Counted from the stretch's first letter, positions 13,175-45,862 are shown. The stretch is 64,000 nt of DNA from an uncultured Candidatus Saccharibacteria bacterium (GCA_964559915.1 CAZLJP010000003.1:119769-183768); one strand, 5' to 3'. Numbers and translations are program-made. Notes: generated by a model from the sequence alone, not told the origin.

Positions 13175-14251
13175 TTGGTCATCTACACTTTGGATATGAC
13201 ATTCATAAGCGTTGTAGCATTAACGGGGCTTGTACTGCTGGCTATTAGTTTGCAGCGGACTTACGGGAGTGTGCCAGTTAAGGAATTAAAACGACGGGCA
13301 CGTGGCGGTGATACAGCCGCCGCAGCATTACACAGAGCGGCTGTGTTTGGTTCGAGCTTACGTGCACTACTGTGGGCTCTGATTGTTGGCCTAAACGCGG
13401 TGTTGTTCCTGATGTTGGTACGACGTTTTGACACGCCGCTGGCGATTATATTGATTGCTGCACTACTGTGGGTTGGCTTTGTCTGGTTGCCGGCCCGGCA
13501 GGCGACCTCTGTTGGAGTCTGGTTAGCGGCACGTTTAGCGCCGTTGTTCGAGAAGATTCTAAACTACGCACACCCTTTGCTTAATCGTGCGCACCGCTTT
13601 ATATCACGCCACCGGCCGGTCACGATTCATACTGGCCTATATGACAAAGATGATTTGCTGCAGCTATTTGAGCGCCAGAAGGTCCAGGCTGACAACCGTG
13701 TTGATGCTCAAGTACTGGAAATTGCGCAACATGCCTTGGCATTTGGCGATAAAAAAGTATCAGACATCCTGACGCCACGGCGAGTCGTAAAGGCCGTTTC
13801 TATTCACGACACCATTGGCCCAATTGTCTTAGATGATTTGCACAAGAGTGGCTTCTCGCGCTTCCCTGTGTACGAAGACAAACAAGACAACATTGTGGGC
13901 GTGCTGTATCTCAAGTCATTGGTGCGTGCCAAGGCTGGCGGCACCGTAGCTAAGCACATGCACAAACAGGTTTGTTATGTACACGAAAACCAGCCGCTCA
14001 CAGAGGCGCTCAAGGCTATATTAGCGACCCATCAGCAACTGTTCGTGGTAGTGAATAGCTTTGAGGAATACGTAGGTGTGGTATCCATAGAAGATATCCT
14101 GGAAGAAATTGTTGGCAAGCAAATTGTTGACGAGCTCGATCAATATGATGATTTGCGTGTTGTTGCCGCCAAAATGGCCGCCAAGGAGCACAAAGAGCAT
14201 ATAGAAACCCCGCACGAGAATATACAAGAAGTTACAGAGGTGATAGAATAG
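13175..14251 (+). CDS. CNNM/DUF21 + CBS-pair membrane protein (CorC/TlyC-like)
   Basis: Three to four N-terminal TM helices followed by tandem CBS-like segments (VSDILTPRRVV..., VCYVHENQPLTEALKAI...VVNSFEEYVGVVSIEDILEEIVG). The track start is TTG 13175. ATG 13196 is an alternative start. Confidence 0.75.
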   Translation: MVIYTLDMTFISVVALTGLVLLAISLQRTYGSVPVKELKRRARGGDTAAAALHRAAVFGSSLRALLWALIVGLNAVLFLMLVRRFDTPLAIILIAALLWVGFVWLPARQATSVGVWLAARLAPLFEKILNYAHPLLNRAHRFISRHRPVTIHTGLYDKDDLLQLFERQKVQADNRVDAQVLEIAQHALAFGDKKVSDILTPRRVVKAVSIHDTIGPIVLDDLHKSGFSRFPVYEDKQDNIVGVLYLKSLVRAKAGGTVAKHMHKQVCYVHENQPLTEALKAILATHQQLFVVVNSFEEYVGVVSIEDILEEIVGKQIVDELDQYDDLRVVAAKMAAKEHKEHIETPHENIQEVTEVIE

Positions 14252-35342: not shown

Positions 35343-35863
35343 TGAAACTCGAACTCCAAACAGACAGTAAGCAAGTTACTGCCCAAGCTACGGCAGCCGT
35401 TAACGGTCCAAGCGTGGAAGGCACAGCCCAGTTTACTGAATATGATGTAGACGGCGCCAAATATGTGCATTTGCATCTAGAACTATCAGGTGACCCAACA
35501 GTGCTCAAACCTGGCAAACATGCCGTACACATTCACGAAAAGGGTGCTTGTGACTGCGATGGCTTCAAATGCGCCGGCGGCCATTTTGATCCGGGTCCTA
35601 GTGGCAACACTGACCCCGATGCCAATCACGGATTCCATGCCGGTGATTTACCAAGCATTACTATCGATGAGCAGGGCAAGGGCGTGCTAGAGGCTATTAC
35701 CACTCGCGTCACACTGTCTGCTGGCCCTGTATCTATACTGGAGCAGCCAGATAAGACTTCCTTGATGGTCCATGCCAACCCAGACCCACACACGCCAGGT
35801 GAATCAGGCTCTGGCCACAGCGGCGGCCCCCGTCTTGCTTGTGGCACTATCGAACGTGCCTAA
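35342..35863 (+). CDS. sodC: superoxide dismutase [Cu-Zn]
   Basis: Metal ligands in HAVHIHEKGAC, GGHFDP, HAGDLP and VHANPD, with C-terminal GGPRLACGTI. No obvious signal peptide. Confidence 0.88.
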   Translation: MKLELQTDSKQVTAQATAAVNGPSVEGTAQFTEYDVDGAKYVHLHLELSGDPTVLKPGKHAVHIHEKGACDCDGFKCAGGHFDPGPSGNTDPDANHGFHAGDLPSITIDEQGKGVLEAITTRVTLSAGPVSILEQPDKTSLMVHANPDPHTPGESGSGHSGGPRLACGTIERA

Positions 35864-35870
35864 AATAAAA

Positions 35871-35894
35871 AGACCGACAAAATCGGTCTTTTTT
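35871..35894 (+). terminator. intrinsic terminator after sodC
   Basis: AGACCGA-CAAAA-TCGGTCT followed by TTTTT. Confidence 0.75.
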
Positions 35895-35918
35895 GGTGGG
35901 GGTGGAAGGACTTGAACC
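35894..35918 (-). repeat. 25-nt exact duplicate of the 3' end of the tRNA at 36064-36139
   Basis: TGGTGGGGGTGGAAGGACTTGAACC is identical at 35894-35918 and 36064-36088. Adjacent hairpin GAAACG-N7-CGTTTC at 35922-35940. Confidence 0.85.
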
Positions 35919-36063
35919 CGAGAAACGCCAGTGACGTTTCGAGTTCACGCTAGAAAAGCTTGTCTGATTGATAGACTTTCGGTACCTGTAAAAACTTTTC
36001 TGGTTGTAGAGTGATGAGGTTCATTAGAACCGATCGACCAAATTATTTTGGCAGCTAGTGATT

Positions 36064-36139
36064 TGGTGGGGGTGGAAGGACTTGAACCTTCGACCAAAGG
36101 ATTATGAGTCCTCTGCTCTAACCACTGAGCTACACCCCC
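36064..36139 (-). tRNA. tRNA, anticodon CAT, elongator type (Met or lysidine-dependent Ile2)
   Basis: Reverse complement GGGGGTGTAGCTCAGTGGTTAGAGCAGAGGACTCATAATCCTTTGGTCGAAGGTTCAAGTCCTTCCACCCCCACCA folds as a 76-nt cloverleaf (7/4/5/5-bp stems) with an encoded CCA. Confidence 0.92.
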
Positions 36140-36329
36140 TCGTCGAAGTGTGATTCTGCGTTGCCGCAAGCTGCCGACAAAACAAGTTTGCTCGGCAACT
36201 GTGGGCAACCCAGAAAGCCTTCTCCTCTCAAAACTGTAAACAGCAGCAAGCTGCTTGGTTTCCAGTTTTGGCATGAACTGCAAGGTAACAGATGTGAGTA
36301 TACCATTTCGTGTATACTTATCTCTAGTC

Positions 36330-36788
36330 ATGTTCGACAAAATAAAAACTTATTACAACCACGCACTCGTTCAGCAATTCAAGGATGTGCGGTTTGTGGG
36401 TTTTGTCGTATTCGGTATCTTAGTATTGCTGGTAAGCTGGAGTGGTGTATCTGTTATCGAAGCTAATTATGATTTGCAAAAGCAGGTCTCCAAACTAGAG
36501 CAAGAGAATCAAGTAGTTGCGTTAGAGAATAACAATCTGAAACTCCAGAACCAGTACTATAACAGTGACCAATACCTAGAACTTACGGCTCGCCGCCAGT
36601 TTGGCAAAGGCCAGCCCGGCGAGAAGTTATTATTGGTACCCAAGAGTGTAGCGCTCAAGTATGTTGCTGATATTCCAGAGGCTGCTAAGGAAGCTGCAGC
36701 AACACCCGTCTTGGAAAAGCCACTACTGCAACGCAACATCGAATCTTGGGTAGATTTCTTTCTGCACCGCGGTAGCTTAGACAATTGA
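36330..36788 (+). CDS. septum formation initiator family protein (FtsB/DivIC-like)
   Basis: One TM helix (FVGFVVFGILVLLVSW), then a coiled coil LQKQVSKLEQENQVVALENNNLKLQNQ and YLELTARRQFG. The track ORF 36255 starts inside the tRNA flank, so ATG 36330 is preferred. Confidence 0.7.
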   Translation: MFDKIKTYYNHALVQQFKDVRFVGFVVFGILVLLVSWSGVSVIEANYDLQKQVSKLEQENQVVALENNNLKLQNQYYNSDQYLELTARRQFGKGQPGEKLLLVPKSVALKYVADIPEAAKEAAATPVLEKPLLQRNIESWVDFFLHRGSLDN

Positions 36789-36863
36789 CATTCCTACCTC
36801 TGTTTGTTAAGATAATACGGCTAAACAGCCCGCGGATACGTGCTCAATCGTATCCGCTAGTAA

Positions 36864-36938
36864 CGCGGGGTAGAGCAGTGGCAGCTCGTGTGGCTCATAA
36901 CCACAAGGTCCCAGGTTCGAGTCCTGGCCCCGCTACCA
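36864..36938 (+). tRNA. initiator tRNA-fMet (anticodon CAT)
   Basis: CGCGGGGTAGAGCAGTGGCAGCTCGTGTGGCTCATAACCACAAGGTCCCAGGTTCGAGTCCTGGCCCCGCTACCA is a 75-nt cloverleaf. It has an unpaired 1:72 position (C/T) and an A11:T24 pair as in bacterial initiators, and is close to the E. coli tRNA-fMet sequence as recalled. Encoded CCA. Confidence 0.85.
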
Positions 36939-37074
36939 AGAAAAGAGTCCCAACACAGTTGGGGCTTTTTTCTTGGTACTGAGACAAGATTCGAGCCAAA
37001 AAGGTTCGGTCTTCAGTCACAGGCCCCAGCGCAGCGGGCGCCTGGATTGAAGTGCGCTGTCCTGGCCCCGCTAC
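36913..37074 (+). repeat. left direct repeat unit: tRNA-fMet 3' end, terminator hairpin, spacer, second copy of the tRNA 3' end
   Basis: TCCTGGCCCCGCTAC occurs at 36922-36936 and again at 37060-37074. Blocks CGCTACCAAGAAAA, hairpin + T-run, GAGCC, AAGGTTCGGTC, GTGCGCT and CCTGGCCCCGCTAC recur in the same order at 40875-41060. Confidence 0.8.
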
Positions 37075-37273
37075 GTAAATAGCCATATTGGAACAAAGCA
37101 AGCTGATAACTACATGCTGCGCTGGGGATACCTGCTTGACCATGATTCTAGCTTGGACGAACTCATTCATGGCACCAGCAACGCCTGGTACGCACTCACA
37201 AATCTGCAATAGTCAACCAAGCAAAAGCATTCCCACCGGACCTAGGCATACCTGGGTGTATTGGTGTAAAAAC

Positions 37274-37882
37274 CTAACCCTTTACGTACTGGAGCTGTCT
37301 GCGGACACCAGACACATTAACGCGATAGTTATACAAACTTTTGCTGACACAGAAGCGTTCCAGCGAATCCTCAAGAGCTTCATTGCGATAGGCCGTGTTC
37401 AACAGGGCTGTTCTCGGCAAAAGTAAGCAGCCCGCAAACCAGTTAGCTTCATTCTCTTGGATTTGATCAAAATCCCTCAGGGCGTATGCTTCATACACAT
37501 AAACCTTTGCTGGTTCGTGTCCACGAATAATATGGGCGAGTTCATGCATTACATTACTAGCTTGGCGAGCCTGCGAATGCCGTGGATTCACAACGATTAT
37601 TTGCTTATCAGCGGTATGTACGGTTACCGCTGACCATTCATCCCCGGCTGGTGATGACAGATAAGCGTAGGTGTCTGTGGCTAGGCCGGACACTTGATCT
37701 AGCTCCAGAATTGTGACGCCCATATTCTTAGCAAGCTCTGTTGGGGGAAGTGGGCTTGAAGGATCTAGATCCATGCGTTTTCGAATACTTATCGCCGTAT
37801 TCTCGCACCAAGTCTTGAAGCCACGCTCAAAACGTTTCTCCTCAGTCTTTGAGATAGCTAATGAGTTGGTCTCACTAGCCAC
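37274..37882 (-). CDS. ImmA/IrrE-family (M78) metallopeptidase
   Basis: HEXXH motif in NVMHELAHIIRGHE with downstream ENEANWFAGCLLLP. GTG start lies 1 nt after the stop of the upstream XRE gene. Confidence 0.85.
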   Translation of the reverse strand: MASETNSLAISKTEEKRFERGFKTWCENTAISIRKRMDLDPSSPLPPTELAKNMGVTILELDQVSGLATDTYAYLSSPAGDEWSAVTVHTADKQIIVVNPRHSQARQASNVMHELAHIIRGHEPAKVYVYEAYALRDFDQIQENEANWFAGCLLLPRTALLNTAYRNEALEDSLERFCVSKSLYNYRVNVSGVRRQLQYVKG

Positions 37883-37883
37883 G

Positions 37884-38213
37884 TTAAAATCCTTGTTCGG
37901 CTGCCTTTTGAACGGTAATAATTAGCTTCGCTAAATGATTGGCCGTATCAGGACTCATCGCCTTATGTGCTCTAAAGTGTGCGTGAACGGGGGCTGCCAT
38001 ATCGGGTAATACGCCGCTGGGAGTATTGATGCCAAGCAGCGTACTCGGGTCAACGTTCAGCCATCTACAAATAGCCCGGAAAGTATCCAGGTCAGGTTGT
38101 TTGCCATTCTCTACACGGGACAGTGTCGCAGGACTAATACCGATGTCTTCGGCTACCTTGCGAATACCTTGCCCACCTCGCTTCTGCTTAATCTTGAGAC
38201 TAAGTTCGTCCAT
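37884..38213 (-). CDS. XRE-family helix-turn-helix transcriptional regulator
   Basis: IRKVAEDIGISPATLSRVENGKQPDLDTFRAICRWLNV is a classic HTH_3 (Cro/C1) domain. 109 aa. Confidence 0.88.
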   Translation of the reverse strand: MDELSLKIKQKRGGQGIRKVAEDIGISPATLSRVENGKQPDLDTFRAICRWLNVDPSTLLGINTPSGVLPDMAAPVHAHFRAHKAMSPDTANHLAKLIITVQKAAEQGF

Positions 38214-38370
38214 ATTTACCTCTGTTCCATTATACTATACATGTTCAACTCTTGCAACGCTGTTTCATATGTGAGACACTAGTTCTAAGACTTTCACTCG
38301 ACAGGTTAGAGAGACCAGCCAGATAAAAAGTCAAAAATCACCAACTAGCCTGTCAGGAGGAACAAGTAAC

Positions 38371-38655
38371 ATGGCAGTACGTATCATCGCAATTAGAAAA
38401 CCTGGGGACAATTACAACGCCTACGAAGCGATCAGTCATTACAAGTGGCTAAACGAGGGCACCGGCAAATCGGCAATTGCCGATCGTCCTACCATGGTTG
38501 ACTGGGTCGAGAATAAGAACGGACGAGCTTACGTTAGTAGCCAAGAGGGCACCGTCGACTGTTTCGTTAACACAAGCGCTAGGGGCACCAAGTTTCTTCA
38601 GACAAATGCTGATAGCCGTTCTTCGAATAACTTGTTAAATCTTCCGGGGTGTTGA
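38371..38655 (+). CDS. DUF3892-like small protein
   Basis: 94 aa. ISHYKW...TMVDWVENKNGRAYV...KFLQTNADSRSSNNLLNLPGC resembles the DUF3892 consensus (C-terminal NNLLxLPxC). SD AGGAGG before the ATG. Confidence 0.6.
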   Translation: MAVRIIAIRKPGDNYNAYEAISHYKWLNEGTGKSAIADRPTMVDWVENKNGRAYVSSQEGTVDCFVNTSARGTKFLQTNADSRSSNNLLNLPGC

Positions 38656-38657
38656 CT

Positions 38658-39398
38658 ATGGGCGATTCGATTCAGAACCCTCGCACTGTATTCCAGCAGC
38701 TTCAGGAGAGCATGTTGGCCGAACTTGAAATGACCAAGGCGACCGTGAATCACGCCCCCACCCAAGGCGCTGCGACTGAAGATAATTGGCTCAAACTGTT
38801 CCAGGACTATCTTCCTAGCCGGTACCGAGCCGAGAGAGGTCAGGTAATGGACTCTAGGGGTGGAATGAGTGACCAAATCGATGTGATTATATTCGATCGA
38901 CACTTCACTCCGTTCTTATTCAACTACAAAGGTGTATATTTTGTTCCAGCAGAGAGTGTCTACGCCGTAATTGAGGTAAAGCCCACGCTTAACAAGAGCT
39001 ACATACAATACGCTGGCGAGAAGGCGGCCTCAGTACGAAGGCTCCACAGGACCAGCGTGCCGATACCGCACGCTGGCGGAGTTTATCCACCAAAGGTACT
39101 ATTCCCGATATTGGGTGGTGTCGTCGCACGATCTGCCGAATGGACTACGGGTCTCGGTGGTGCTTTTAAAAAGGCCATCGTCACGAAAGACCCCAATATG
39201 ATGATTGATTTTGGCTGCGCTCTTAATGCTGGATCTTTCAAGGTTGATTACTCAGGTATCCAGCCAGCTATCACTATCAGTGACCAGAATGTACTGCTGG
39301 CCTTCATCATGGGCTTATTGGACAAGTTGCAATCCTTGGCTAGCGTGCCGGCGCTGGATTACAAGGCATACGGAGAACAGGGAGCTGCAAATGTCTGA
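38658..39398 (+). CDS. PD-(D/E)xK-like putative nuclease (DUF6602-like)
   Basis: GGMSDQIDVIIFD followed 23 aa later by SVYAVIEVKPTL gives a D...E-x-K arrangement typical of the restriction-endonuclease fold. The track ORF starts at GTG 38649, overlapping the upstream stop. ATG 38658 is the alternative. Confidence 0.55.
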   Translation: MGDSIQNPRTVFQQLQESMLAELEMTKATVNHAPTQGAATEDNWLKLFQDYLPSRYRAERGQVMDSRGGMSDQIDVIIFDRHFTPFLFNYKGVYFVPAESVYAVIEVKPTLNKSYIQYAGEKAASVRRLHRTSVPIPHAGGVYPPKVLFPILGGVVARSAEWTTGLGGAFKKAIVTKDPNMMIDFGCALNAGSFKVDYSGIQPAITISDQNVLLAFIMGLLDKLQSLASVPALDYKAYGEQGAANV

Positions 39399-40776
39399 AG
39401 TTAAAAGCTTATTCAAGGAATACCTGAGTGCCATTGAGCCAGACACAAAAGCAAAAAATATTGCTGCAAAGAGCCATGTTCAACCCAGAGAGTATCTTGA
39501 GAATGACGAGGTAATCGGTGACACAGTCGAGGATTCATTCTTGTACGGTTCTTACCGACGACACACCGCTATACACGATATTAAGGATGTTGATATCGTT
39601 ATGATCTCGAGTTTTGACCCAGATACAGATACTCCTAACACTGTGCTGAACAAATTGCATGCAGCTTTAAAGCGATGTTATGGAGACACCAACGTTCTTG
39701 AACTCAACCGCCGATCTGTTTGTGTCACGAACCCGCTGCCGGATGAAGAGACTGACCTAACGCTCGACATACTGCCTGCAGTTGAAGTTAACGATGGAAG
39801 TGGATATCTGCTAGTTCCAGACCGTGATCAAAAAGATTGGATACTCACTAACCCACGCGGTCACATAGAAGCGATTACAACGGCTAATAAGAAGCTGGAT
39901 AAAACGCTGGTACCGATGATAAAAATCATGAAGGCTTGGTGGCATCACCAGTCGTCACTTATTACCGGTGATTCAACTCAGAAGCTCCGGCCTAAAGGAT
40001 TCTGGATAGAAACACTAGTTCTTACTCATTTTGATTCATCTGCAGACAATTGGGCGCAGCGCTTTATAGAACTCCTCGAGAACATAACAACATCGTACCC
40101 TAAGGGTTCTGATGTACCTGAATTGCCAGATCCGGGTATGCCTGAGTCGATTCTTCAGACCAGTATGAGCAAGTCTGAGTTTGAAGTATTCATGAATACA
40201 GCTAGAAGCTCCTTGGGACTGGCGTACTCTGCATTTAACGAGACGGACCGACACGCCAGCTCTCAAACATGGTCACAGATTTTTGGCGATCACTTCCCAA
40301 TTGAAGAGGCAAAGGAGAAGCAAAAGTTTCTTACTGGGCAACAGTACGTACTGGGCAACATTAACCACGCGGTCGACTTGAGTTTCCCTTACTCCGTGAA
40401 TGGACAAGCAAGCCTCCGTGCAGAGCTCTATCGCCGCAATTACGATAATCGCAGGCTGAAGGTAAGATTTGGCACCCTGCAGCCACACGACTCAATAACC
40501 AGTGGTTTACACATCCGATTTAAGGCATGGACTGATGTCACGCTCCCTTATCGTGTGTACTGGCGTGTGGTGAATACTGGAGCACACGCAGCACAAGACA
40601 AGGGTTTGAGAGGCAAGCCCTTTCTAGATGACTCAGGCACTGAGCTCACTAGATGGGAGCCTACAGAATACACTGGTAAGCATTGGATGGAGTGCTTCAT
40701 TGTTAAGGGTGGTGAGGTAGTAGCTGCCAGTGAACGCTTCTACATCAACATCACTAACCCTAAGTGGGCTACGTAG
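39391..40776 (+). CDS. Pol-beta-fold nucleotidyltransferase, SMODS/CD-NTase-like, with uncharacterised C-terminal domain
   Basis: SFLYGSYRRHTAIHDIKDVDIVMI (G-S ... DxD) and TLDILPAVE (third acidic residue), then NPRGHIEA...LVPMIKIMKAWW as in SMODS-type cyclases. The ~180-aa C-terminal region is beta-rich. ATG 39391 overlaps the upstream stop (ATGTCTGA). The track ORF start at 39205 lies inside the preceding gene. Confidence 0.7.
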   Translation: MSEVKSLFKEYLSAIEPDTKAKNIAAKSHVQPREYLENDEVIGDTVEDSFLYGSYRRHTAIHDIKDVDIVMISSFDPDTDTPNTVLNKLHAALKRCYGDTNVLELNRRSVCVTNPLPDEETDLTLDILPAVEVNDGSGYLLVPDRDQKDWILTNPRGHIEAITTANKKLDKTLVPMIKIMKAWWHHQSSLITGDSTQKLRPKGFWIETLVLTHFDSSADNWAQRFIELLENITTSYPKGSDVPELPDPGMPESILQTSMSKSEFEVFMNTARSSLGLAYSAFNETDRHASSQTWSQIFGDHFPIEEAKEKQKFLTGQQYVLGNINHAVDLSFPYSVNGQASLRAELYRRNYDNRRLKVRFGTLQPHDSITSGLHIRFKAWTDVTLPYRVYWRVVNTGAHAAQDKGLRGKPFLDDSGTELTRWEPTEYTGKHWMECFIVKGGEVVAASERFYINITNPKWAT

Positions 40777-40874
40777 CTGAAGGCAACATACAGTTCCACT
40801 CCTAGTTGCTAGAGGAAGCTAACTGATTGGCTGATCTGATTAGGGGCTTCCAGCGCAGTATCTCCTTACAGATT

Positions 40875-41060
40875 AGGTTCCATTGCGATTGCACGCACGC
40901 TACCAAGAAAAAAGCTTTGGAATGGTTCCAAAGCTTTTTTCTTTGTTCGGAGCAGGACGAGAGCCTGATGCGCGGTAGCCAAGGTTCGGTCATCCAGTCA
41001 GAGCACAGGGGTTTACTCCGAGCACTGGTGCAGATGTGCGCTACCCTGGCCCCGCTACCA
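40875..41060 (+). repeat. right direct repeat unit (degenerate tRNA 3' end, hairpin, spacer, tRNA 3'-end copy)
   Basis: AGGTTC...CGCTACCAAGAAAA (40875-40911), a perfect 16-bp hairpin at 40907-40941, AAGGTTCGGTC at 40981-40991, and CCCTGGCCCCGCTACCA at 41044-41060. Confidence 0.8.
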
Positions 41061-41070
41061 TAAGCGTTCT

Positions 41071-41098
41071 GACCTCTGGAAATCAGAGGTCTTTTTTT
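41071..41098 (+). terminator. intrinsic terminator
   Basis: GACCTCTG-GAAAT-CAGAGGTC followed by TTTTTTT. Confidence 0.8.
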
Positions 41099-41132
41099 AT
41101 GCCCAAGTTTCAGCTATGCTTAAGTTAATTAA

Positions 41133-41627
41133 ATGGTGGCTCACATGAAGAAAGATGAAAATGGTTTCAGTACTACAATAATCTTAACGCTGGTGGCAGT
41201 TCTAGCACTGATTGGTGCTATTGGCTGGTATGTATCAAGCTCTGGCGATGGTAAGAGTTGTGGCTCCAGAGATTTAGGAAACACGATTTCCGCCGACTCT
41301 AATCAACCGGCCGAGTCAACAAACGACTGCTTTGAACAAGCCTTTGCTCATTGTGAAAAAGCTACATATAGCATCAAATACTCTGGTTTTGATACGACAG
41401 CTCAGTATTCAATACAGGGTAAAGATGCAAAATCTGGTAAGTGCAGAGGCGGGTATAAGTACACAGAGCACTCCACGAAGAAATTGGTCGGCAAGTATAT
41501 GTACTGCGAGTTAGACCAATCAACCACGCCTTTTATGACTGCATTTAGCAATGCTAGTAGTGGTTCTCAGCATGAGCTAGAACAGCGCTGCAAAGGACCT
41601 TTACTAGAAGGACCCCTCGGACCTTAG
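41133..41627 (+). CDS. hypothetical membrane-anchored Cys-containing protein
   Basis: 164 aa with an N-terminal hydrophobic anchor (TTIILTLVAVLALIGAIGWYV) and six Cys in the ectodomain. ATG 41145 is an alternative start. Confidence 0.6.
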   Translation: MVAHMKKDENGFSTTIILTLVAVLALIGAIGWYVSSSGDGKSCGSRDLGNTISADSNQPAESTNDCFEQAFAHCEKATYSIKYSGFDTTAQYSIQGKDAKSGKCRGGYKYTEHSTKKLVGKYMYCELDQSTTPFMTAFSNASSGSQHELEQRCKGPLLEGPLGP

Positions 41628-41747
41628 ATTTTTTCATCTTGCTAACCCTTCAAGAATATCGTTCCAATTCGAATGAACTACGGCTACCAAGCGCAGGCAT
41701 TATGAACTCAGAAAAATCTGGGATCTTTATTTGCTATAGTGAGGTAG

Positions 41748-42194
41748 ATGAACAACAAGTCAATTAACAGGACGGCAGCCAGTGCTACACTTCATTGCCT
41801 GACAGGGTGTGGCATAGGTGAAGTGCTTGGCATGGCAATTTCTACCTTCTATGGTTGGTCTACTGTGCCAAGTATCGTATTGGCAGTAGTGTTAGCTTTC
41901 GTATTCGGTTATTTGCTTAGCATAATGCCACTTCTTAAACATGGCTTACATTGGAGAAAGGCAATCAGAATTGCCCTTGCTGCCGACACAGCATCAATAG
42001 TAGTAATGGAAATTACAGATAATGCTTTTATATTAGCAGTGCCCAATGCGATACACGCCGAGCTTAATTCTTGGCTTTTTTGGATAAGTCTTATTTCTTC
42101 TTTGGCAGTAGCTTTCCTGTTCGCATTTCCTCTAAACAAATTTCTCATTCAGCGGGGTAAGGGTCATGCTGTTATCCACTCACACCATCACTAA
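41748..42194 (+). CDS. DUF4396 domain-containing membrane protein
   Basis: ATLHCLTGCGIGEVLGM at the N-terminus and four TM helices are typical of DUF4396. Confidence 0.6.
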   Translation: MNNKSINRTAASATLHCLTGCGIGEVLGMAISTFYGWSTVPSIVLAVVLAFVFGYLLSIMPLLKHGLHWRKAIRIALAADTASIVVMEITDNAFILAVPNAIHAELNSWLFWISLISSLAVAFLFAFPLNKFLIQRGKGHAVIHSHHH

Positions 42195-42449
42195 GAGGTC
42201 CTAGTCTGCTTCGGATGAACCTCGGGCCTTATTTTATAATGTTCTAATATGTGATTAGGGAAATGTCAAATACGGGCGTATAATTATAGATGTAGATAAG
42301 CTTAATGCCAAGTACCGCACAGGGAGCTAACCAAAAATTGTTGTTAGGCCATTGAGCAGTAACCTCTAATGAAAGGACCTCATTATGGCCAAAGACAAGG
42401 GACGAAAAGAAATCAAAAAAGTTAAGCAACCCAAGAGCAAGATTTAATC

Positions 42450-42695
42450 GTGCCTGGTGCAACTAAAGCAAAGTTTATTGATACCGAAGAAGCTCAGGAA
42501 GTTAAACGCCAGCTTGAACTTATAGCTAATGACGAAAAGTACAATACCGCCGCAAGCTATAGCGCAAATGAATTGCTGTATCCAGATAATCTCATCCCGT
42601 TTGTTGATAAGCACATGAAGTATCTCATCAGTCATCCACAGCTTGACCCAGAAATGTACCTGGCTAACGTCAGACTATTGACTCGAATTCGATAA
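42450..42695 (+). CDS. hypothetical protein
   Basis: 81-aa ORF with a GTG start, 2 nt after a 20-codon Lys-rich mini-ORF (42385-42447). Confidence 0.45.
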   Translation: MPGATKAKFIDTEEAQEVKRQLELIANDEKYNTAASYSANELLYPDNLIPFVDKHMKYLISHPQLDPEMYLANVRLLTRIR

Positions 42696-42804
42696 CTCGA
42701 TACTTCCAATTACTGCGTCTATCCCCAAGAGGCCGCGGAAATTTTTGGTTGAAAAATGCTATTGGTTGGCGCACACTCTAGGCAAGTAACTGGAGCGCAC
42801 ATGT

Positions 42805-43599
42805 ATGGATAATCAAGCATCTAAAACAGTAGTCACAAAATCGAACACCATATCGCTATCATTAAATCTCAAATACATTTGTGTGGCCTTATTGCTCGTC
42901 ATTGTTGCCATGTTGGCTCTGTGGCGACCATGGCAAACCTCAGTATCTGATAACAGTCGAGTAATAAAAGTGACTGGTGAAACCCAGGTAACTGCCCAGC
43001 CTGACGAATTTGTGTTTTATCCCAGCTATCAATTGAAAAATGCTAGCAAAGATGCGGCCTTGGCAGAGCTCACCCAAAAAAGTGATGATGTAGTCAAGAA
43101 ACTCAAAGAGTTAGGAGTTGAGGATAGCAAAATTAAGACCGATTCAAATGGCTGGGAAGGCTATCAGTACTTCTACGACGATAGCGCCAAGCAAGCAAAC
43201 TATACGCTCACCCTAACAGTCACTGTTGGCAACAAGGAACTTGCCCAGAAGGTTCAAGATTATCTTGTAACAACCGCTCCAACTGGCTCGGTATCGCCAC
43301 AAGCAGGATTTAGTGATGCCACGCGCAAAAAGCTTGAGGATAAAGCCCGTGATGAAGCTACAAAAGATGCTCGGGCTAAGGCGGATCAGTCAGCCAAAAA
43401 CCTTGGCTACAAAATTGGCAGGGTTAAGAGTGTCGACGATGCCGGCGGTCTTGGTAACATGGGCGGCTGCCGTGGCGGCATCTGCGCCGGTGCGGCGTTA
43501 TCTGTTGCCGAGGACAAAGCCACTACACCAAGCCTGAGCGTGCAATCAGGCGAAAATAAGCTGATTTACAGCGTAACTGTCGAGTACTTCATCCGCTAA
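42805..43599 (+). CDS. SIMPL (DUF541) domain-containing protein
   Basis: TM anchor, then IKVTGETQVTAQPDEFVF...YTLTLTVTV...KADQSAKNLGYKIGRVKSV...LIYSVTVEYFI, a pattern typical of SIMPL/26-kDa periplasmic immunogenic proteins. Confidence 0.65.
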   Translation: MDNQASKTVVTKSNTISLSLNLKYICVALLLVIVAMLALWRPWQTSVSDNSRVIKVTGETQVTAQPDEFVFYPSYQLKNASKDAALAELTQKSDDVVKKLKELGVEDSKIKTDSNGWEGYQYFYDDSAKQANYTLTLTVTVGNKELAQKVQDYLVTTAPTGSVSPQAGFSDATRKKLEDKARDEATKDARAKADQSAKNLGYKIGRVKSVDDAGGLGNMGGCRGGICAGAALSVAEDKATTPSLSVQSGENKLIYSVTVEYFIR

Positions 43600-43624
43600 C
43601 AGGCGTCATGCTACAATAACGCTT

Positions 43625-43879
43625 ATGAATACATTTGCATACGCAGCTGAAGAGTTGCCAAACGCCAACGAGACAACCGCGACAATCGGTTTGTGGGTTT
43701 TTGTCGTTTCTGCATTTGTGGTGGGTGGTATTATCATTTACATCATCTGGTCACACATACAGGAAGCCAACAAAAAACCTACCAAGAAGACTCCAGCCAA
43801 AAAGGCTGCTACCAAGAAGCCAGCCCCTAAGGCCAAGGCCGCTCCCAAGAAAAAAGCTCCCGCCAAACGCAAAAAGTAG
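43625..43879 (+). CDS. small membrane protein with histone-H1-like Lys/Ala/Pro tail
   Basis: 84 aa with one TM helix, then KKPTKKTPAKKAATKKPAPKAKAAPKKKAPAKRKK. Confidence 0.55.
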   Translation: MNTFAYAAEELPNANETTATIGLWVFVVSAFVVGGIIIYIIWSHIQEANKKPTKKTPAKKAATKKPAPKAKAAPKKKAPAKRKK

Positions 43880-43978
43880 TTTTTGCATTACCTGCTGTGA
43901 GATTTCCAACAGCAGGCCAGTAGTACATGTCATAAACTGTGTGCAGCTACGCTTGTAGCTAAGGGTTTGGAGGGATGT

Positions 43979-44242
43979 ATGAACTACGATAAACGTTTGC
44001 CCGATATGGCGGAGATTTTACGATTAAGCACGCTAGTGCGGCCGTATCCCACGACACGTCGCGAGGTGGTTCGTGTAGCTCGAATGTGGAACTTTCCTGA
44101 ATCCGTCGTCAGTCTTGTCAGGCAGTTCCCAGCAGATGAGGTCTTTGATGCGAGGATAGATCTAGTGAATCGCTGTAACGATTTAGCCAGTCTGATACGT
44201 CATCAGTGGCAAGTACCAAGGCAAAGCAGCCTTAATTTGTAA
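43979..44242 (+). CDS. hypothetical protein
   Basis: The track ORF starts at TTG 43967. ATG 43979 is preceded by SD GGAGGG at the proper distance. 87 aa. Confidence 0.5.
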   Translation: MNYDKRLPDMAEILRLSTLVRPYPTTRREVVRVARMWNFPESVVSLVRQFPADEVFDARIDLVNRCNDLASLIRHQWQVPRQSSLNL

Positions 44243-44252
44243 CATAAGCATA

Positions 44253-44280
44253 TTGACAAAATAGCAAAACCATGTATAAT
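44253..44280 (+). promoter_or_regulatory. near-consensus sigma70-type promoter
   Basis: TTGACA (44253-44258), 16-nt spacer, TATAAT (44275-44280). Confidence 0.6.
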
Positions 44281-44343
44281 GAGTAGTGTTATATCGCGAT
44301 AAAACAAAAACGTAATAACAAACATAAAAAGGAAAGGAATATC

Positions 44344-44448
44344 GTGAGCGTACTTGCGCTATCACATCAGTTGGCATACGAATTATTGCCAACAACTAGC
44401 GAAGAAATCCTACAACTCGATATAGAGTTAAATGAGATTTATTCGTAA
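44344..44448 (+). CDS. candidate 34-aa small ORF
   Basis: GTG start preceded by AAAGGAAAGGAA. Encodes MSVLALSHQLAYELLPTTSEEILQLDIELNEIYS. Lies between the strong promoter and the 44559 terminator. Confidence 0.3.
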   Translation: MSVLALSHQLAYELLPTTSEEILQLDIELNEIYS

Positions 44449-44558
44449 CAAACTATGTTAATACAAGATATTAGGCCTGCCCCTAAACAAGCAGCCAAAA
44501 AACTACGACACATTAGTCGGACCAGACGATATATTGTAATCGCTGGCTAAAGCAAAAA

Positions 44559-44587
44559 GCCCCTCCATTACGAGCGAGGGGCTTTTT
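44559..44587. terminator. bidirectional intrinsic terminator
   Basis: GCCCCTC-N10-GAGGGGC with AAAAA upstream and TTTTT downstream. Abuts the stop of the minus-strand gene at 44588. Confidence 0.75.
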
Positions 44588-45493
44588 CTATGCAGCATGT
44601 GCGATATGCGGTGGCTCAATACCGGCATAGTGCAGTAACAGTGGTAATTGTCTCTCGCCAGCAGTATGTTCGCCGGGTTGTCGCAGTGTATCTTCAATTG
44701 CAAAAAACTTATGAGCCGGTGTAATAGCCTGGTAACGCGGCAGGGCACAGTTGGTGTTTACCACGTGGTCAGATGGGCCGTGCACATAATACACGGCGTC
44801 CATAATATCGGGCAGGCTGCCATCAGGATGAGACTGGCCCATAAAGAGCCCCTCAGAGCGAATGGTATCCAGATGGGCACCAGCGGACATTGGCCCAGCT
44901 ACATGGCTGTAAATCTGACGTTTCAGGAAATCTAGAGTCATGCTTGAACGCACGCCTTTACTCGATGCCATAGTAAGCAAGCGTTTGTGGCTATCGTGTA
45001 CGTCCTGCAGGTCAAAAGGTGAGGCATCCAAGATAATCGGGCCAAAACCACCCAGTTTTTCGGCTACACCGGTCTGCTGGGCATAGTGCAGGAAGTGTCG
45101 CATCACAATGCCCCCCATAGACTCACATAGCAGGGCGGGTCGTTCAGCTCGGTTTTTAACAAGCTGCTTGGCTAGGCCTTCACAGACTGCCTCCACGTTA
45201 AAAGTGTGTTCTGGGTAATCGGTAGCAATGAGCTTCGTGTTGGGCGTGACCTTGGCCAGGCTCTCAAAGAATAGTCGGCCATTTGTTTGGCAGCCAGGCA
45301 GGACTCCTAGGGTGTGCCGGGCACCTTGGTTGAGGTGAGCGGTATGAAACTCGGGGGTGGTGCGGCGCGTCGCATTGCTGTGGGCGCCAAAAATCTGGTC
45401 GATAGCAAACACAGTCCCAACAGCTAAGACAGGCATAAGGCCTTTCTCGAAGTTGTTTGGTATTTGACTGTGTTTTTGTGTTGAACTAAGCAT
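44588..45493 (-). CDS. putative alpha/beta-fold hydrolase
   Basis: 301 aa with a nucleophile-elbow-like LLCESMGGIV, and later HGPSDHVV and GEHTAG as possible Asp/His. Weak call. Confidence 0.45.
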   Translation of the reverse strand: MLSSTQKHSQIPNNFEKGLMPVLAVGTVFAIDQIFGAHSNATRRTTPEFHTAHLNQGARHTLGVLPGCQTNGRLFFESLAKVTPNTKLIATDYPEHTFNVEAVCEGLAKQLVKNRAERPALLCESMGGIVMRHFLHYAQQTGVAEKLGGFGPIILDASPFDLQDVHDSHKRLLTMASSKGVRSSMTLDFLKRQIYSHVAGPMSAGAHLDTIRSEGLFMGQSHPDGSLPDIMDAVYYVHGPSDHVVNTNCALPRYQAITPAHKFFAIEDTLRQPGEHTAGERQLPLLLHYAGIEPPHIAHAA

Positions 45494-45586
45494 TGTGCTT
45501 ACGCCCTCAAACCTAGTTATACTACCAATTTAAAATATGTCAATAGTGATAAATATCACTAAATCTCTCGAGTATTTTGCTGATTC

Positions 45587-45619
45587 TGGTAGCGATGAGT
45601 GGACTTGAACCACTGACCC
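45587..45619 (-). repeat. tRNA 3'-half fragment (T-arm, acceptor strand, CCA) of a second tRNA-Met-like copy
   Basis: TGGTAGCGATGAGTGGACTTGAACCACTGACCC versus the intact tRNA 3' end TGGTAGCGGCGAGTGGGCTTGAACCACTGACCT (4 mismatches in 33). Adjacent perfect 11-bp hairpin at 45619-45643. Confidence 0.8.
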
Positions 45620-45785
45620 GTAAACGCCCTGTGGGCGTTTACGTTTTCCTTGCTTGACCGAAATTTGAACGCATTCAAATTTCGTAGGATATGACAGGCT
45701 TATATTTCATATAAACTGCAGCCATACTCGAAGTAAACTTCTGCGTGTGGCTTTGTTTATGAGCCCTGACAATTTAGAACATTTC

Positions 45786-45862
45786 TGGTAGCGGCGAGTG
45801 GGCTTGAACCACTGACCTCAGGCTTATGAGTCCTGCGCTCTAACCAGCTGAGCTACGCCGCC
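45786..45862 (-). tRNA. tRNA, anticodon CAT, elongator type (Met or Ile2)
   Basis: Reverse complement GGCGGCGTAGCTCAGCTGGTTAGAGCGCAGGACTCATAAGCCTGAGGTCAGTGGTTCAAGCCCACTCGCCGCTACCA is a 77-nt cloverleaf with an encoded CCA and one A/G mismatch at the base of the anticodon stem. Confidence 0.9.

What the first reader, a model, noticed from the sequence alone, without database searches (positions are those of the whole stretch)
36864..41098. Islet bracketed by ~160-190-bp direct repeats containing four copies of the tRNA-fMet 3' end, with no integrase
**What the sequence shows**
- The tRNA-fMet 3' end (TCCTGGCCCCGCTACCA) recurs at 37060-37074 and 41044-41060. A degenerate copy (AGGTTC...CGCTACCA) lies at 40875-40905.
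- The whole unit recurs on both sides of the 3.8-kb gene block. The unit is: tRNA 3' end, AGAAAA, hairpin + T-run, GAGCC, AAGGTTCGGTC, GTGCGCT, then a tRNA 3'-end copy.
- The hairpin stems differ in sequence but sit at the same position.

**Interpretation**
- This looks like attL/attR of a tRNA-targeting integrative element, yet no recombinase is encoded inside.
- The islet is therefore either fixed and decayed, or mobilised in trans.
Basis: seen in the sequence. Interest (0 to 1): 0.6.

Follow-up and report, generated by a model that had tools for sequence, protein, structure and literature searches.

The report
Defence islet in tRNA-anchored insertion array
Behind the initiator tRNA gene of this Saccharibacteria genome lies a stack of site-specific insertions, one of them an integrase-less CBASS anti-phage cassette, separated by copies of an undescribed ~150-base structured module that ends in an exact copy of the tRNA's 3' end.

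Summary
The repeats are real. CCTGGCCCCGCTAC occurs three times, against 0.23 expected. The diverged copy sits at 40875-40905.

The 3.8-kb block is a CBASS defence cassette: CapP, CapH, DUF3892, NucC and a CD-NTase. It encodes no recombinase.

The ~160-190-bp "direct repeats" are probably not the islet's attL/attR. They are two different members of a module family: terminator hairpin, structured spacer, exact copy of the tRNA 3' end. This family is widespread in Saccharibacteria:
- It follows 13 of 43 initiator tRNA genes without any cargo.
- It also follows elongator tRNA-Met genes.
- It occurs in tandem arrays.

The islet's own junction repeat is only CGCTAC. Its right end is a conserved 29-nt pseudo-tRNA end found in about 20 other loci.

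Relatives carry large serine recombinases:
- A sister CBASS cassette lies in a recombinase-bearing island at a tRNA-Lys gene.
- A recombinase-bearing island at tRNA-fMet has the same right-end type.

The window holds an array: tRNA, module 1, CBASS islet, module 2, mini-islet 2.

What the modules are remains unresolved. Their core hairpin covaries strongly.

The parts
36864..36938 (+). Initiator tRNA-Met(CAT) gene. Its 3' end up to GCTACC(A) is the anchor site of the array.
   Evidence: ARAGORN. Rfam tRNA, 62 bits. Promoter-like TTGACA-17-TAAGAT at 36785-36813.
36939..37074 (+). Module 1. It consists of terminator hairpin T1 (arms 36934-36954/36958-36978), spacer X1 (stem CGAGCC/GGTTCG and a long hairpin at about 37012-37048) and B1 (37059-37074), an exact copy of the tRNA from the T-loop to GCTAC.
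   Evidence: The same subfamily is present in L073, L096, L101 and L102.
37069..37074 (+). Left copy of the 6-bp core CGCTAC, at the junction between B1 and the islet.
   Evidence: Read directly from the sequence. Identity with the tRNA stops after GCTAC.
37075..40897 (.). CBASS islet (cargo). There is 200 bp of non-coding DNA at the left end, then five genes, then the right-end site P1.
   Evidence: The stretch 37293-40770 is 68% identical at nucleotide level to L172 3628-7111. No recombinase remnant was found in either end.
37274..37882 (-). CapP-like ImmA/IrrE (M78) metallopeptidase.
   Evidence: Pfam PF06114, E = 1.7e-19. PADLOC capP, E = 2.9e-11.
37884..38213 (-). CapH-like XRE-type helix-turn-helix (HTH) repressor.
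   Evidence: Pfam HTH_3, E = 1.9e-10. PADLOC capH, E = 5e-5. Promoter-like site at 38257-38229.
38371..38655 (+). DUF3892 protein, the first gene of the operon.
   Evidence: Pfam PF13031, E = 1.5e-11. It holds the same position in L172.
38652..39398 (+). NucC-type endonuclease effector (DUF6602).
   Evidence: PADLOC NucC effector, E = 4.6e-89. Pfam PF20247.
39391..40776 (+). CD-NTase (SMODS domain plus AGS-C sensor domain).
   Evidence: Pfam PF18144 and PF18134. PADLOC cyclase, E = 3.5e-61. Homologues reach 72-77% identity.
40875..40905 (+). P1, the pseudo-tRNA 3' end that closes the islet (AGGTTCCATTGCGATTGCACGCAC + GCTACCA). It contains the right copy of the core CGCTAC at 40898-40903.
   Evidence: It is homologous, together with about 15 nt upstream, to the P site of L165 and to that of L078. 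It belongs to the conserved P family GTTCCAATTCGAATGTACTTGGGCWACCA.
40906..41060 (+). Module 2. It consists of hairpin T2 (arms 40902-40922/40926-40946), spacer X2 with the conserved hairpin core at 41003-41023, and B2 (41044-41060).
   Evidence: It is orthologous to the module of L165, with compensatory stem changes.
41061..41689 (+). Mini-islet 2. It consists of the left-end hairpin T3 (41061-41100, TAAGCGTTCTGACC...), the ORF 41133-41627 (164 aa, pilin-like N-terminus) and a second pseudo-tRNA end P2 (41661-41689).
   Evidence: (repeat family D5). A terminator-like hairpin follows at 41707-41722.

Best explanation
**What it is**
- The flagged stretch is part of a tandem array of site-specific insertions stacked behind the initiator tRNA gene of a Candidatus Saccharibacteria genome.
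- The order is: tRNA-fMet, module 1, CBASS islet, module 2, mini-islet 2.
- Every segment ends in something that imitates the tRNA's 3' end up to GCTACC(A). Modules end in an exact 16-18-nt copy (B). Islets end in a conserved 29-nt pseudo-tRNA end (P).

**The CBASS islet**
- It is a five-gene cassette regulated by CapH and CapP (type I CBASS: CD-NTase plus NucC).
- It was inserted between the tRNA-end copy of module 1 and the terminator hairpin of module 2. Only CGCTAC is repeated at its two junctions.

**Likely mechanism (inferred)**
- Insertion by a large serine recombinase of the kind found at the left end of related islands. It would cross over in the GC(T/A)A-CC core between the element's site (P-core-P') and the tRNA end, or any copy of that end.
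- This islet has lost that gene or never had it, so it is now either fixed or dependent on a recombinase supplied in trans.

**The long 'direct repeats'**
- They are two independently derived copies of the module family, not a duplication made by the islet.
- Because each module recreates a tRNA-end-plus-hairpin junction, modules multiply the available landing sites and arrays grow.

**Shown versus inferred**
- Shown: the anatomy, the distribution of modules and P sites, the cassette homology, and recombinases in relatives.
- Inferred: the recombinase type for this islet, the order of events, and any current mobility.
For: **Repeats and genes**
- Repeats.
- CBASS genes.

**Modules without cargo**
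- They follow tRNA-fMet in L009, L012, L026, L029, L036, L043, L056, L060, L067 and L073.
- They appear in about 16 metagenome contigs.
- 13 of 43 initiator and 6 of 62 elongator tRNA-Met genes have such a copy within 450 nt.
- L139 has three modules in tandem.

**Arrays of modules and islets**
- Seen in L003, L015, L063, L078, L102, L106, L165 and the window.
- The P site is conserved in about 20 loci.

**Recombinase-bearing relatives**
- L106: a 527-aa recombinase with Resolvase and Recombinase domains lies next to the tRNA-fMet. The island's right end is P, followed by a module. The two junctions rebuild a palindromic site, TACTTGG-GCAA-CCAAGTA.
- L172: the same five-gene cassette lies in an island with a 532-aa serine recombinase abutting tRNA-Lys.
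- L056 and L067: a serine recombinase lies at the elongator tRNA-Met, with P plus module at the far end in L067.

**Subfamilies and orthology**
- Module 2 and P1 are orthologous to those of the relative L165. Module 1 belongs to another subfamily.

**Synteny**
- Gene order upstream of FtsB and the tRNA is conserved and breaks right after the tRNA.
Against: **Recombinase**
- None was found in the 64-kb window: tblastn and Pfam scans of 20 mid-size ORFs.
- No recombinase remnant lies in the islet ends.

**Inverted repeat between the islet's ends**
- It is weak in the window: only GTTCCA/TGGAAC at symmetric distance. It is not the best-scoring partner in an ungapped scan.
- The serine-recombinase reading for this islet therefore rests on analogy.

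**Empty site**
- No genome of the same species lacking the islet was available. The nearest relatives have 82-84% FtsB identity, and their downstream regions differ entirely.

**Module at the right end**
- Seven P sites are followed directly by a module.
- In L165, near-identical modules bracket 6 kb.

**Excised forms**
- No excised or viral copies of the sites were found.
Confidence: 0.55

Rival explanations
1. One integrative element carried its own copy of the whole unit: tRNA 3' end, hairpin, spacer, tRNA-end copy. It recombined with the resident unit. The two ~160-190-bp units would then be its attL and attR, and the integrase was later lost.
For: - In L165, two modules identical except for a handful of substitutions and small indels bracket a 6-kb block. 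Identity starts and ends exactly at GCTACC.
- Seven P sites are followed directly by a module.
- The relative L165 has one unit directly behind the tRNA where the window has two flanking the islet.
Against: - The window's two units share only 76% column identity. Their hairpins differ entirely and they fall in different subfamilies.
- Unit R is orthologous to the relative's unit, whereas unit L groups with units of other genomes.
- Modules occur alone or in tandem without cargo in many genomes.
- Other P sites are followed directly by non-module sequence.
Confidence: 0.2
2. The modules are host-encoded structured RNAs or tRNA 3' trailers inherited vertically. The islets would enter by homologous recombination after DNA uptake, using the conserved tRNA and module sequences as flanks. 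No site-specific recombinase would be involved.
For: - The module's core hairpin covaries strongly and has invariant unpaired bases.
- G.U pairs outnumber A.C by 15 to 6 on the tRNA strand.
- The module and P are conserved between the window and L165.
Against: - The modules have a patchy distribution: 13 of 43 initiator tRNA genes.
- T1 hairpins are near-identical in distant genomes: the window and L060, which share 51% FtsB identity.
- Tandem and near-identical intragenomic copies exist.
- Junctions fall precisely at one 6-bp core.
- Recombinase genes abut the same site in relatives.
- There is no Rfam match.
- Folding energy shows no strand asymmetry.
Confidence: 0.1
3. The catalyst is not a large serine recombinase. 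It would be a host-encoded tyrosine or Xer-type recombinase, or a single-strand (hairpin-recognising) enzyme acting in trans, as in IMEX elements or integron cassettes.
For: - Only 1 of about 20 P-bounded islets at tRNA-fMet carries a serine recombinase.
- The modules are rich in hairpins whose structure, rather than sequence, is conserved.
- The exact tRNA-end copies are 16-27 nt long, which is typical of tyrosine-integrase core identity.
Against: - No such enzyme was seen in any array examined.
- The L106 junctions rebuild a palindromic site typical of serine recombinases.
- The Dehalococcoides ssrA islands show that serine recombinases can give ~20-bp repeats (PMC3146451).
Confidence: 0.12

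Closest known systems
Dehalococcoides ssrA-specific genomic islands (DsiB, a CcrB-like large serine recombinase; PMC3146451)
   Same: - Tandem islands lie downstream of a single essential small-RNA gene.
- Each island is bounded by a ~20-bp copy of the gene's 3' end that starts in the T-loop.
- A conserved motif lies just upstream of the repeat.
- A ~540-aa serine recombinase sits on the reverse strand next to attL.
- Some islands lack the integration module and were proposed to be cis-mobilizable elements.
   Different: - The anchor here is tRNA-fMet (and other tRNAs), not tmRNA.
- The host is a Saccharibacteria (Candidate Phyla Radiation, CPR) genome.
- Most islets are tiny (0.6-6 kb) and lack a recombinase.
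- The arrays are interleaved with ~150-nt structured, cargo-less modules that have no described counterpart.
SCCmec / pseudo-SCC composite islands (CcrAB recombinases). Comparison from general knowledge, not tested here.
   Same: - Cassettes stack at the 3' end of one conserved gene.
- Each cassette is bounded by short integration-site repeats.
- Cassettes without ccr genes depend on a recombinase encoded by a neighbour.
   Different: - Different target gene, host and cargo.
- No pair of recombinase genes was seen.
- No modules.
Tycheposons of Prochlorococcus (bioRxiv 10.1101/2020.12.28.424599)
   Same: - tRNA-anchored islands are built by repeated integration.
- Partial tRNAs are scattered through the island, and degenerate remnants are present.
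- A minority of elements use large serine recombinases.
- Cargo is defence or adaptation genes.
   Different: - Tycheposons are defined by carrying their own integrase, mostly a tyrosine recombinase, and often replication genes.
- This islet has neither.
Cis-mobilizable elements (CIMEs) and accretion with integrative conjugative elements (ICEs) in streptococci (reviewed in PMC5704250)
   Same: An element flanked by att sites, lacking integration and transfer genes, sitting in tandem with related elements.
   Different: - The CIME concept comes from tyrosine-integrase ICEs.
- Mobilisation has not been shown here.
Type I CBASS with CapH/CapP regulation (bioRxiv 10.1101/2022.04.27.489752)
   Same: A CD-NTase and a NucC nuclease effector, with a divergently transcribed HTH repressor and M78 peptidase.
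   Different: - The cyclase carries an AGS-C domain.
- An extra DUF3892 gene leads the operon.
- The CapH and CapP matches are modest (E = 5e-5 and 3e-11).

Membership tests
tRNA-targeting integrative element (genomic island with attL/attR) | A copy of the tRNA 3' end at the boundary distal to the tRNA | tested here: met
   B1, P1 and B2 all end in (C)GCTAC(CA).
tRNA-targeting integrative element (genomic island with attL/attR) | A site-specific recombinase encoded within the element | tested here: not met
   The five ORFs are CapP, CapH, DUF3892, NucC and CD-NTase. No recombinase remnant was found.
tRNA-targeting integrative element (genomic island with attL/attR) | An empty site in close relatives that collapses to a single att copy | tested here: inconclusive
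   - L165 to L167 (82% FtsB identity) have one module directly behind the tRNA, but also a second copy 6 kb downstream.
- L169 has one module.
- No genome of the same species was available.
Large-serine-recombinase island | A recombinase with Resolvase and Recombinase domains adjacent to attL | tested here: not met
   It is absent from the window. It is present in the relatives L106, L172, L056 and L067.
Large-serine-recombinase island | Element ends that form an imperfect inverted repeat around a short core (P-core-P') | tested here: inconclusive
   - L106 rebuilds TACTTGG-GCAA-CCAAGTA.
- In the window only GTTCCA/TGGAAC lie at symmetric distance, and this is not the top-scoring partner.
Cis-mobilizable element / pseudo-SCC-like cassette | Flanked by the integration-site sequence, with no integration or transfer genes, in tandem with related elements | tested here: met
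   The array runs module 1, islet 1, module 2, islet 2.
Cis-mobilizable element / pseudo-SCC-like cassette | Excision or transfer with a helper element | not testable with these tools
   This needs junction PCR or reads, or a helper recombinase assay.
CBASS | A CD-NTase together with an effector activated by a cyclic nucleotide | tested here: met
   SMODS plus AGS-C cyclase and NucC.
CBASS with CapH/CapP control | A divergent HTH repressor plus an M78 peptidase upstream of the operon | tested here: met
   The gene order matches, with PADLOC capH and capP matches. There is a promoter-like site between the two transcription units.
Known RNA family (Rfam 15) for the module | A match to a curated covariance model | tested here: not met
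   Only the two tRNAs scored in 35500-42000 at E <= 1.
Structured nucleic-acid element (module core hairpin) | Base pairs kept through compensatory changes, above the controls | tested here: met
   - 27 distinct copies, with 94.3% of cells paired.
- 10 of 11 pairs show double changes.
- The covariation score is 0.69, against 0.26 for shuffles (0 of 500 reached it) and at most 0.15 for slid partners.

The most novel reading that the evidence does not exclude
The ~135-190-nt modules would be a new class of miniature tRNA-end-targeting element, or a new structured RNA or single-stranded DNA element.

**Anatomy**
- A terminator hairpin that begins at the tRNA's CCA.
- A stem pairing GGTTCG with an upstream complement.
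- A long hairpin with an invariant internal loop (GC-GCA ... GA-GC-A).
- Then a 16-27-nt exact copy of the 3' end of whichever tRNA lies upstream.

**Proposed behaviour**
- They copy themselves to tRNA-end sites.
- They regenerate landing sites and so seed defence-cassette arrays in the tiny genomes of Saccharibacteria.
- A scaffold followed by a 3' target-matching tail also leaves open a guide-RNA-like role.
Probability: 0.35. Interest if true: 0.75.

Novelty: new variant of a known kind. Interest (0 to 1): 0.55.

Why it matters
- Saccharibacteria and other Candidate Phyla Radiation (CPR) bacteria have very small genomes. Little is known about how they gain defence genes.
- This locus shows a concrete route: cassette arrays anchored on the 3' end of tRNA genes. 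Most cassettes lack their own recombinase.
- The undescribed structured module recreates the landing site.
- If the modules are mobile or functional RNAs, they are a new player in island formation. They are also a handy marker for finding variable regions in CPR genomes.
- The islet itself is an ordinary CBASS system.

Tried and rejected
**Searches that found nothing**
- Rfam at E <= 1 gave no family for the spacer.
- G+C and skew profiles show no contrast between islet and flanks.
- Three DNA-pattern scans of viral contigs found nothing: module end, hairpin core and P site. The recombinase search there returned one 22%-identical relative.
- Of 83 metagenome pattern hits, only about 16 were true modules. 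The rest were chance matches in GC-rich DNA.
- tblastn with island recombinases against the window, and Pfam on 20 further ORFs, found no recombinase or transposase.
- Literature searches on island formation in Saccharibacteria found nothing relevant.

**Ideas rejected or revised**
- The module is a tRNA T-arm interrupted by an insertion. Rejected: the GGTTCG block always pairs with an upstream complement, and in elongator-type modules it does not copy the T-stem.
- TAAGCACTTTGACC is the native tRNA terminator, so modules are insertions in front of it. Revised: this sequence is a partial inverted copy of P and marks the left end of islets.
- The strand of a putative RNA can be read from folding energies. 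No asymmetry was found. There is only a weak G.U excess.

**Ideas that could not be tested**
- The module resembles a TnpB omega-RNA or an integron attC site.

Full report
**Observation**

The window comes from a Candidatus Saccharibacteria genome. Homologues of the FtsB/DivIC gene just upstream of the tRNA are nearly all from that group.

The tRNA-Met(CAT) at 36864-36938 is of the initiator type.
- CCTGGCCCCGCTAC is exact at 36923, 37061 and 41045. With up to 2 mismatches allowed, 0.23 matches are expected and 0 of 100 shuffles reached three.
- AAGGTTCGGTC is exact at 37001 and 40981.
- Both terminator-like hairpins occupy the same position with different stems.
- A diverged tRNA-end-like stretch lies at 40875-40905.

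**Cargo**

The block between the units holds five genes:
- an M78/ImmA peptidase (CapP-like)
- an XRE helix-turn-helix protein (CapH-like), divergently transcribed
- a DUF3892 protein
- a NucC-type endonuclease
- a CD-NTase with SMODS and AGS-C domains

This is a type I CBASS system under CapH/CapP-type control, as described in bioRxiv 10.1101/2022.04.27.489752. No recombinase is present. G+C content does not differ from the flanks.

**The long repeats are a widespread module**

I fetched 80 loci around FtsB homologues from species-representative genomes. In these, tRNA-fMet is often followed by the same arrangement with nothing in between:
- a hairpin that starts at the CCA
- a 100-150-nt spacer
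- an exact copy of the tRNA from the T-loop (GTCC...) to the CCA

This is seen in L009, L012, L026, L029, L036, L043, L056, L060, L067 and L073.

A metagenome pattern scan added about 16 more. They include three modules in tandem in L139.

Within 450 nt downstream, 13 of 43 initiator and 6 of 62 elongator tRNA-Met genes carry a copy of their own 3' end. In the elongator cases the spacer has the same architecture, but the terminal copy matches the elongator tRNA.

In the window itself, the other two tRNA(CAT) genes carry analogous downstream copies:
- 35892-35918, for the tRNA at 36064-36139
- 45587-45617, for the tRNA at 45786-45862. The conserved hairpin core lies at about 45716-45754.

The unit is therefore a common intergenic module.

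**Module structure**

Folding and alignment show three recurring features:
- the GGTTCG block pairs with an upstream complement
- a long hairpin has a conserved internal loop
- the tRNA-end copy follows as a tail

I aligned 27 distinct copies of the hairpin core, taken from modules behind three different tRNA species.
- 94.3% of cells are paired.
- 10 of 11 pairs show changes on both sides.
- The covariation score is 0.69. Shuffles give 0.26 (0 of 500 reached the observed value) and slid partners give at most 0.15.
- The unpaired C-A and G-A-G positions are invariant.

G.U pairs outnumber A.C by 15 to 6 on the tRNA strand. Folding energies of the two strands do not differ. Whether the structure acts as RNA or as single-stranded DNA is open. 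Rfam has no match.

**The 'degenerate tRNA copy' is a conserved site**

Sequences of the form GTTCCAATTCGAATGTACTTGGGC(T/A)ACCA occur in about 20 Saccharibacteria loci. They always lie downstream of tRNA-fMet and on the same strand. I call this site P.

- P closes islets of 0.6-6 kb.
- P is followed either by a module or by other hairpins. Some of these are of a TAAGCACTTTGACC type, which is a partial inverted copy of P and marks the left end of the next islet.
- The window has a second P at 41661-41689. This defines a 0.63-kb mini-islet (41061-41689) with one 164-aa ORF.

The window's array is therefore: tRNA, module 1 (36939-37074), CBASS islet (37075-40897 plus P1), module 2 (40906-41060), mini-islet 2.

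The sequence shared by the islet's two junctions is only CGCTAC, at 37069-37074 and 40898-40903.

**Recombinases in relatives**

- L106: a 527-aa protein with Resolvase and Recombinase domains lies on the reverse strand directly after tRNA-fMet. Its reading frame runs into the tRNA. The island, which carries another SMODS/AGS-C cyclase, ends in P followed by a module. The two junctions rebuild a palindromic TACTTGG-GCAA-CCAAGTA, as expected for a serine-recombinase attP.
- L172: the same five-gene CBASS cassette is present, with 68% nucleotide identity over 3.5 kb and 72% for the cyclase. It lies in an island whose left end is a 532-aa serine recombinase abutting tRNA-Lys(CTT).
- L056 and L067: serine recombinases sit at the elongator tRNA-Met.
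- L078 is a close parallel to the window: a Fic-protein islet without recombinase, between a module and P plus module.
- The window has no such recombinase and no remnant of one in the islet ends.

**Relatives**

Gene order upstream of FtsB and the tRNA is conserved and breaks immediately after the tRNA.

The nearest relatives with long contigs are L165, L166 and L167 (82% FtsB identity).
- They have one module right behind the tRNA.
- A second, nearly identical module lies 6 kb further on, preceded by a P site. That P site is homologous to the window's P1, including about 15 nt upstream.
- Their module is orthologous to the window's module 2, with compensatory stem changes.
- The window's module 1 belongs to a different subfamily, shared with L073, L096, L101 and L102.

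This argues that the window's two units were not made by one crossover. However, the L165 arrangement keeps alive the rival view that a module can travel as part of an islet.

**Mechanism**

The best-supported reading is repeated site-specific insertion at the tRNA 3' end or at any copy of it.
- It would be catalysed by a large serine recombinase that most islets no longer carry, or never carried.
- Modules multiply the landing sites.

For this islet the recombinase type is inferred from relatives. The inverted symmetry of its own ends is weak.

**Closest described systems**

- The tandem ssrA islands of Dehalococcoides have a CcrB-like recombinase, ~20-bp repeats starting in the T-loop, and members without an integration module (PMC3146451).
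- Tycheposons.
- SCC/pseudo-SCC arrays (from general knowledge).

The interleaved structured modules have no described counterpart that I could find.

**Verdict**

- The islet itself is an ordinary CBASS cassette in a tRNA-anchored array.
- The module family is the unexpected part and deserves follow-up.

Noticed in passing
window 41061-41689: A second, tiny recombinase-less islet. It has a left-end hairpin (TAAGCGTTCTGACC...), one 164-aa ORF with a pilin-like N-terminus (41133-41627) and a second pseudo-tRNA end (41661-41689). A terminator-like hairpin follows at 41707-41722.
   Followed up: partly
window 35892-36139: The elongator tRNA-Met (36064-36139, minus strand) has an exact 27-nt copy of its 3' end 143 nt downstream (35892-35918). 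The spacer lacks the conserved hairpin core.
   Followed up: partly
window 45587-45862: The 77-nt tRNA(CAT) (45786-45862, minus strand) is followed by a spacer holding the same conserved hairpin core (about 45716-45754). A copy of the tRNA's own 3' end, with 3 mismatches, lies at 45587-45617.
   Followed up: partly
window 38371-38655; L172 4708-4995: A DUF3892 protein is the first gene of the CBASS operon in both islands. This suggests it belongs to the system. Its role is unknown.
   Followed up: no
L139 1502-2030: Three modules lie in tandem behind tRNA-fMet. The first and third are nearly identical, and the middle one is of another subfamily.
   Followed up: partly
L165 8664-15036: Two near-identical modules bracket about 6 kb that holds a 367-aa M78-peptidase protein, a GDSL lipase and small ORFs. 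Identity between the two copies starts and ends exactly at GCTACC.
   Followed up: partly
L124 (module at about 2817-2902 on the strand matching the scan pattern, the reverse of the stored sequence): A module that ends in the tRNA-fMet 3' end lies behind a different tRNA, one ending ...CCCGGAGCCA. The tail and the upstream tRNA can therefore be mismatched.
   Followed up: no
L106 3821-3864; L172 22-79; L056 about 3130: The serine recombinase reading frames run into the antisense of the tRNA 3' end. The C-terminus of the protein therefore changes on integration and excision.
   Followed up: no
L063 (about 1.3 kb downstream of the tRNA at 13595-13669, minus strand): A longer copy of the tRNA, running from the anticodon loop onwards. 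A 29-nt hairpin is inserted in the T-loop. This is another form of interrupted tRNA-end copy.
   Followed up: no
L001 (Logan contig, equal to window 36915-45842): The short-read assembly of the same sequence breaks inside the tRNA-fMet 3' end and inside the 77-nt tRNA(CAT). This is as expected if these repeats confuse assemblers.
   Followed up: no
L170/L171 951-8763: The NucC and CD-NTase pair (71.6% nucleotide identity; cyclase 77% amino-acid identity) occurs without CapH/CapP, next to a 1329-aa Eco57I-type restriction-modification gene. This is another defence-island context.
   Followed up: no
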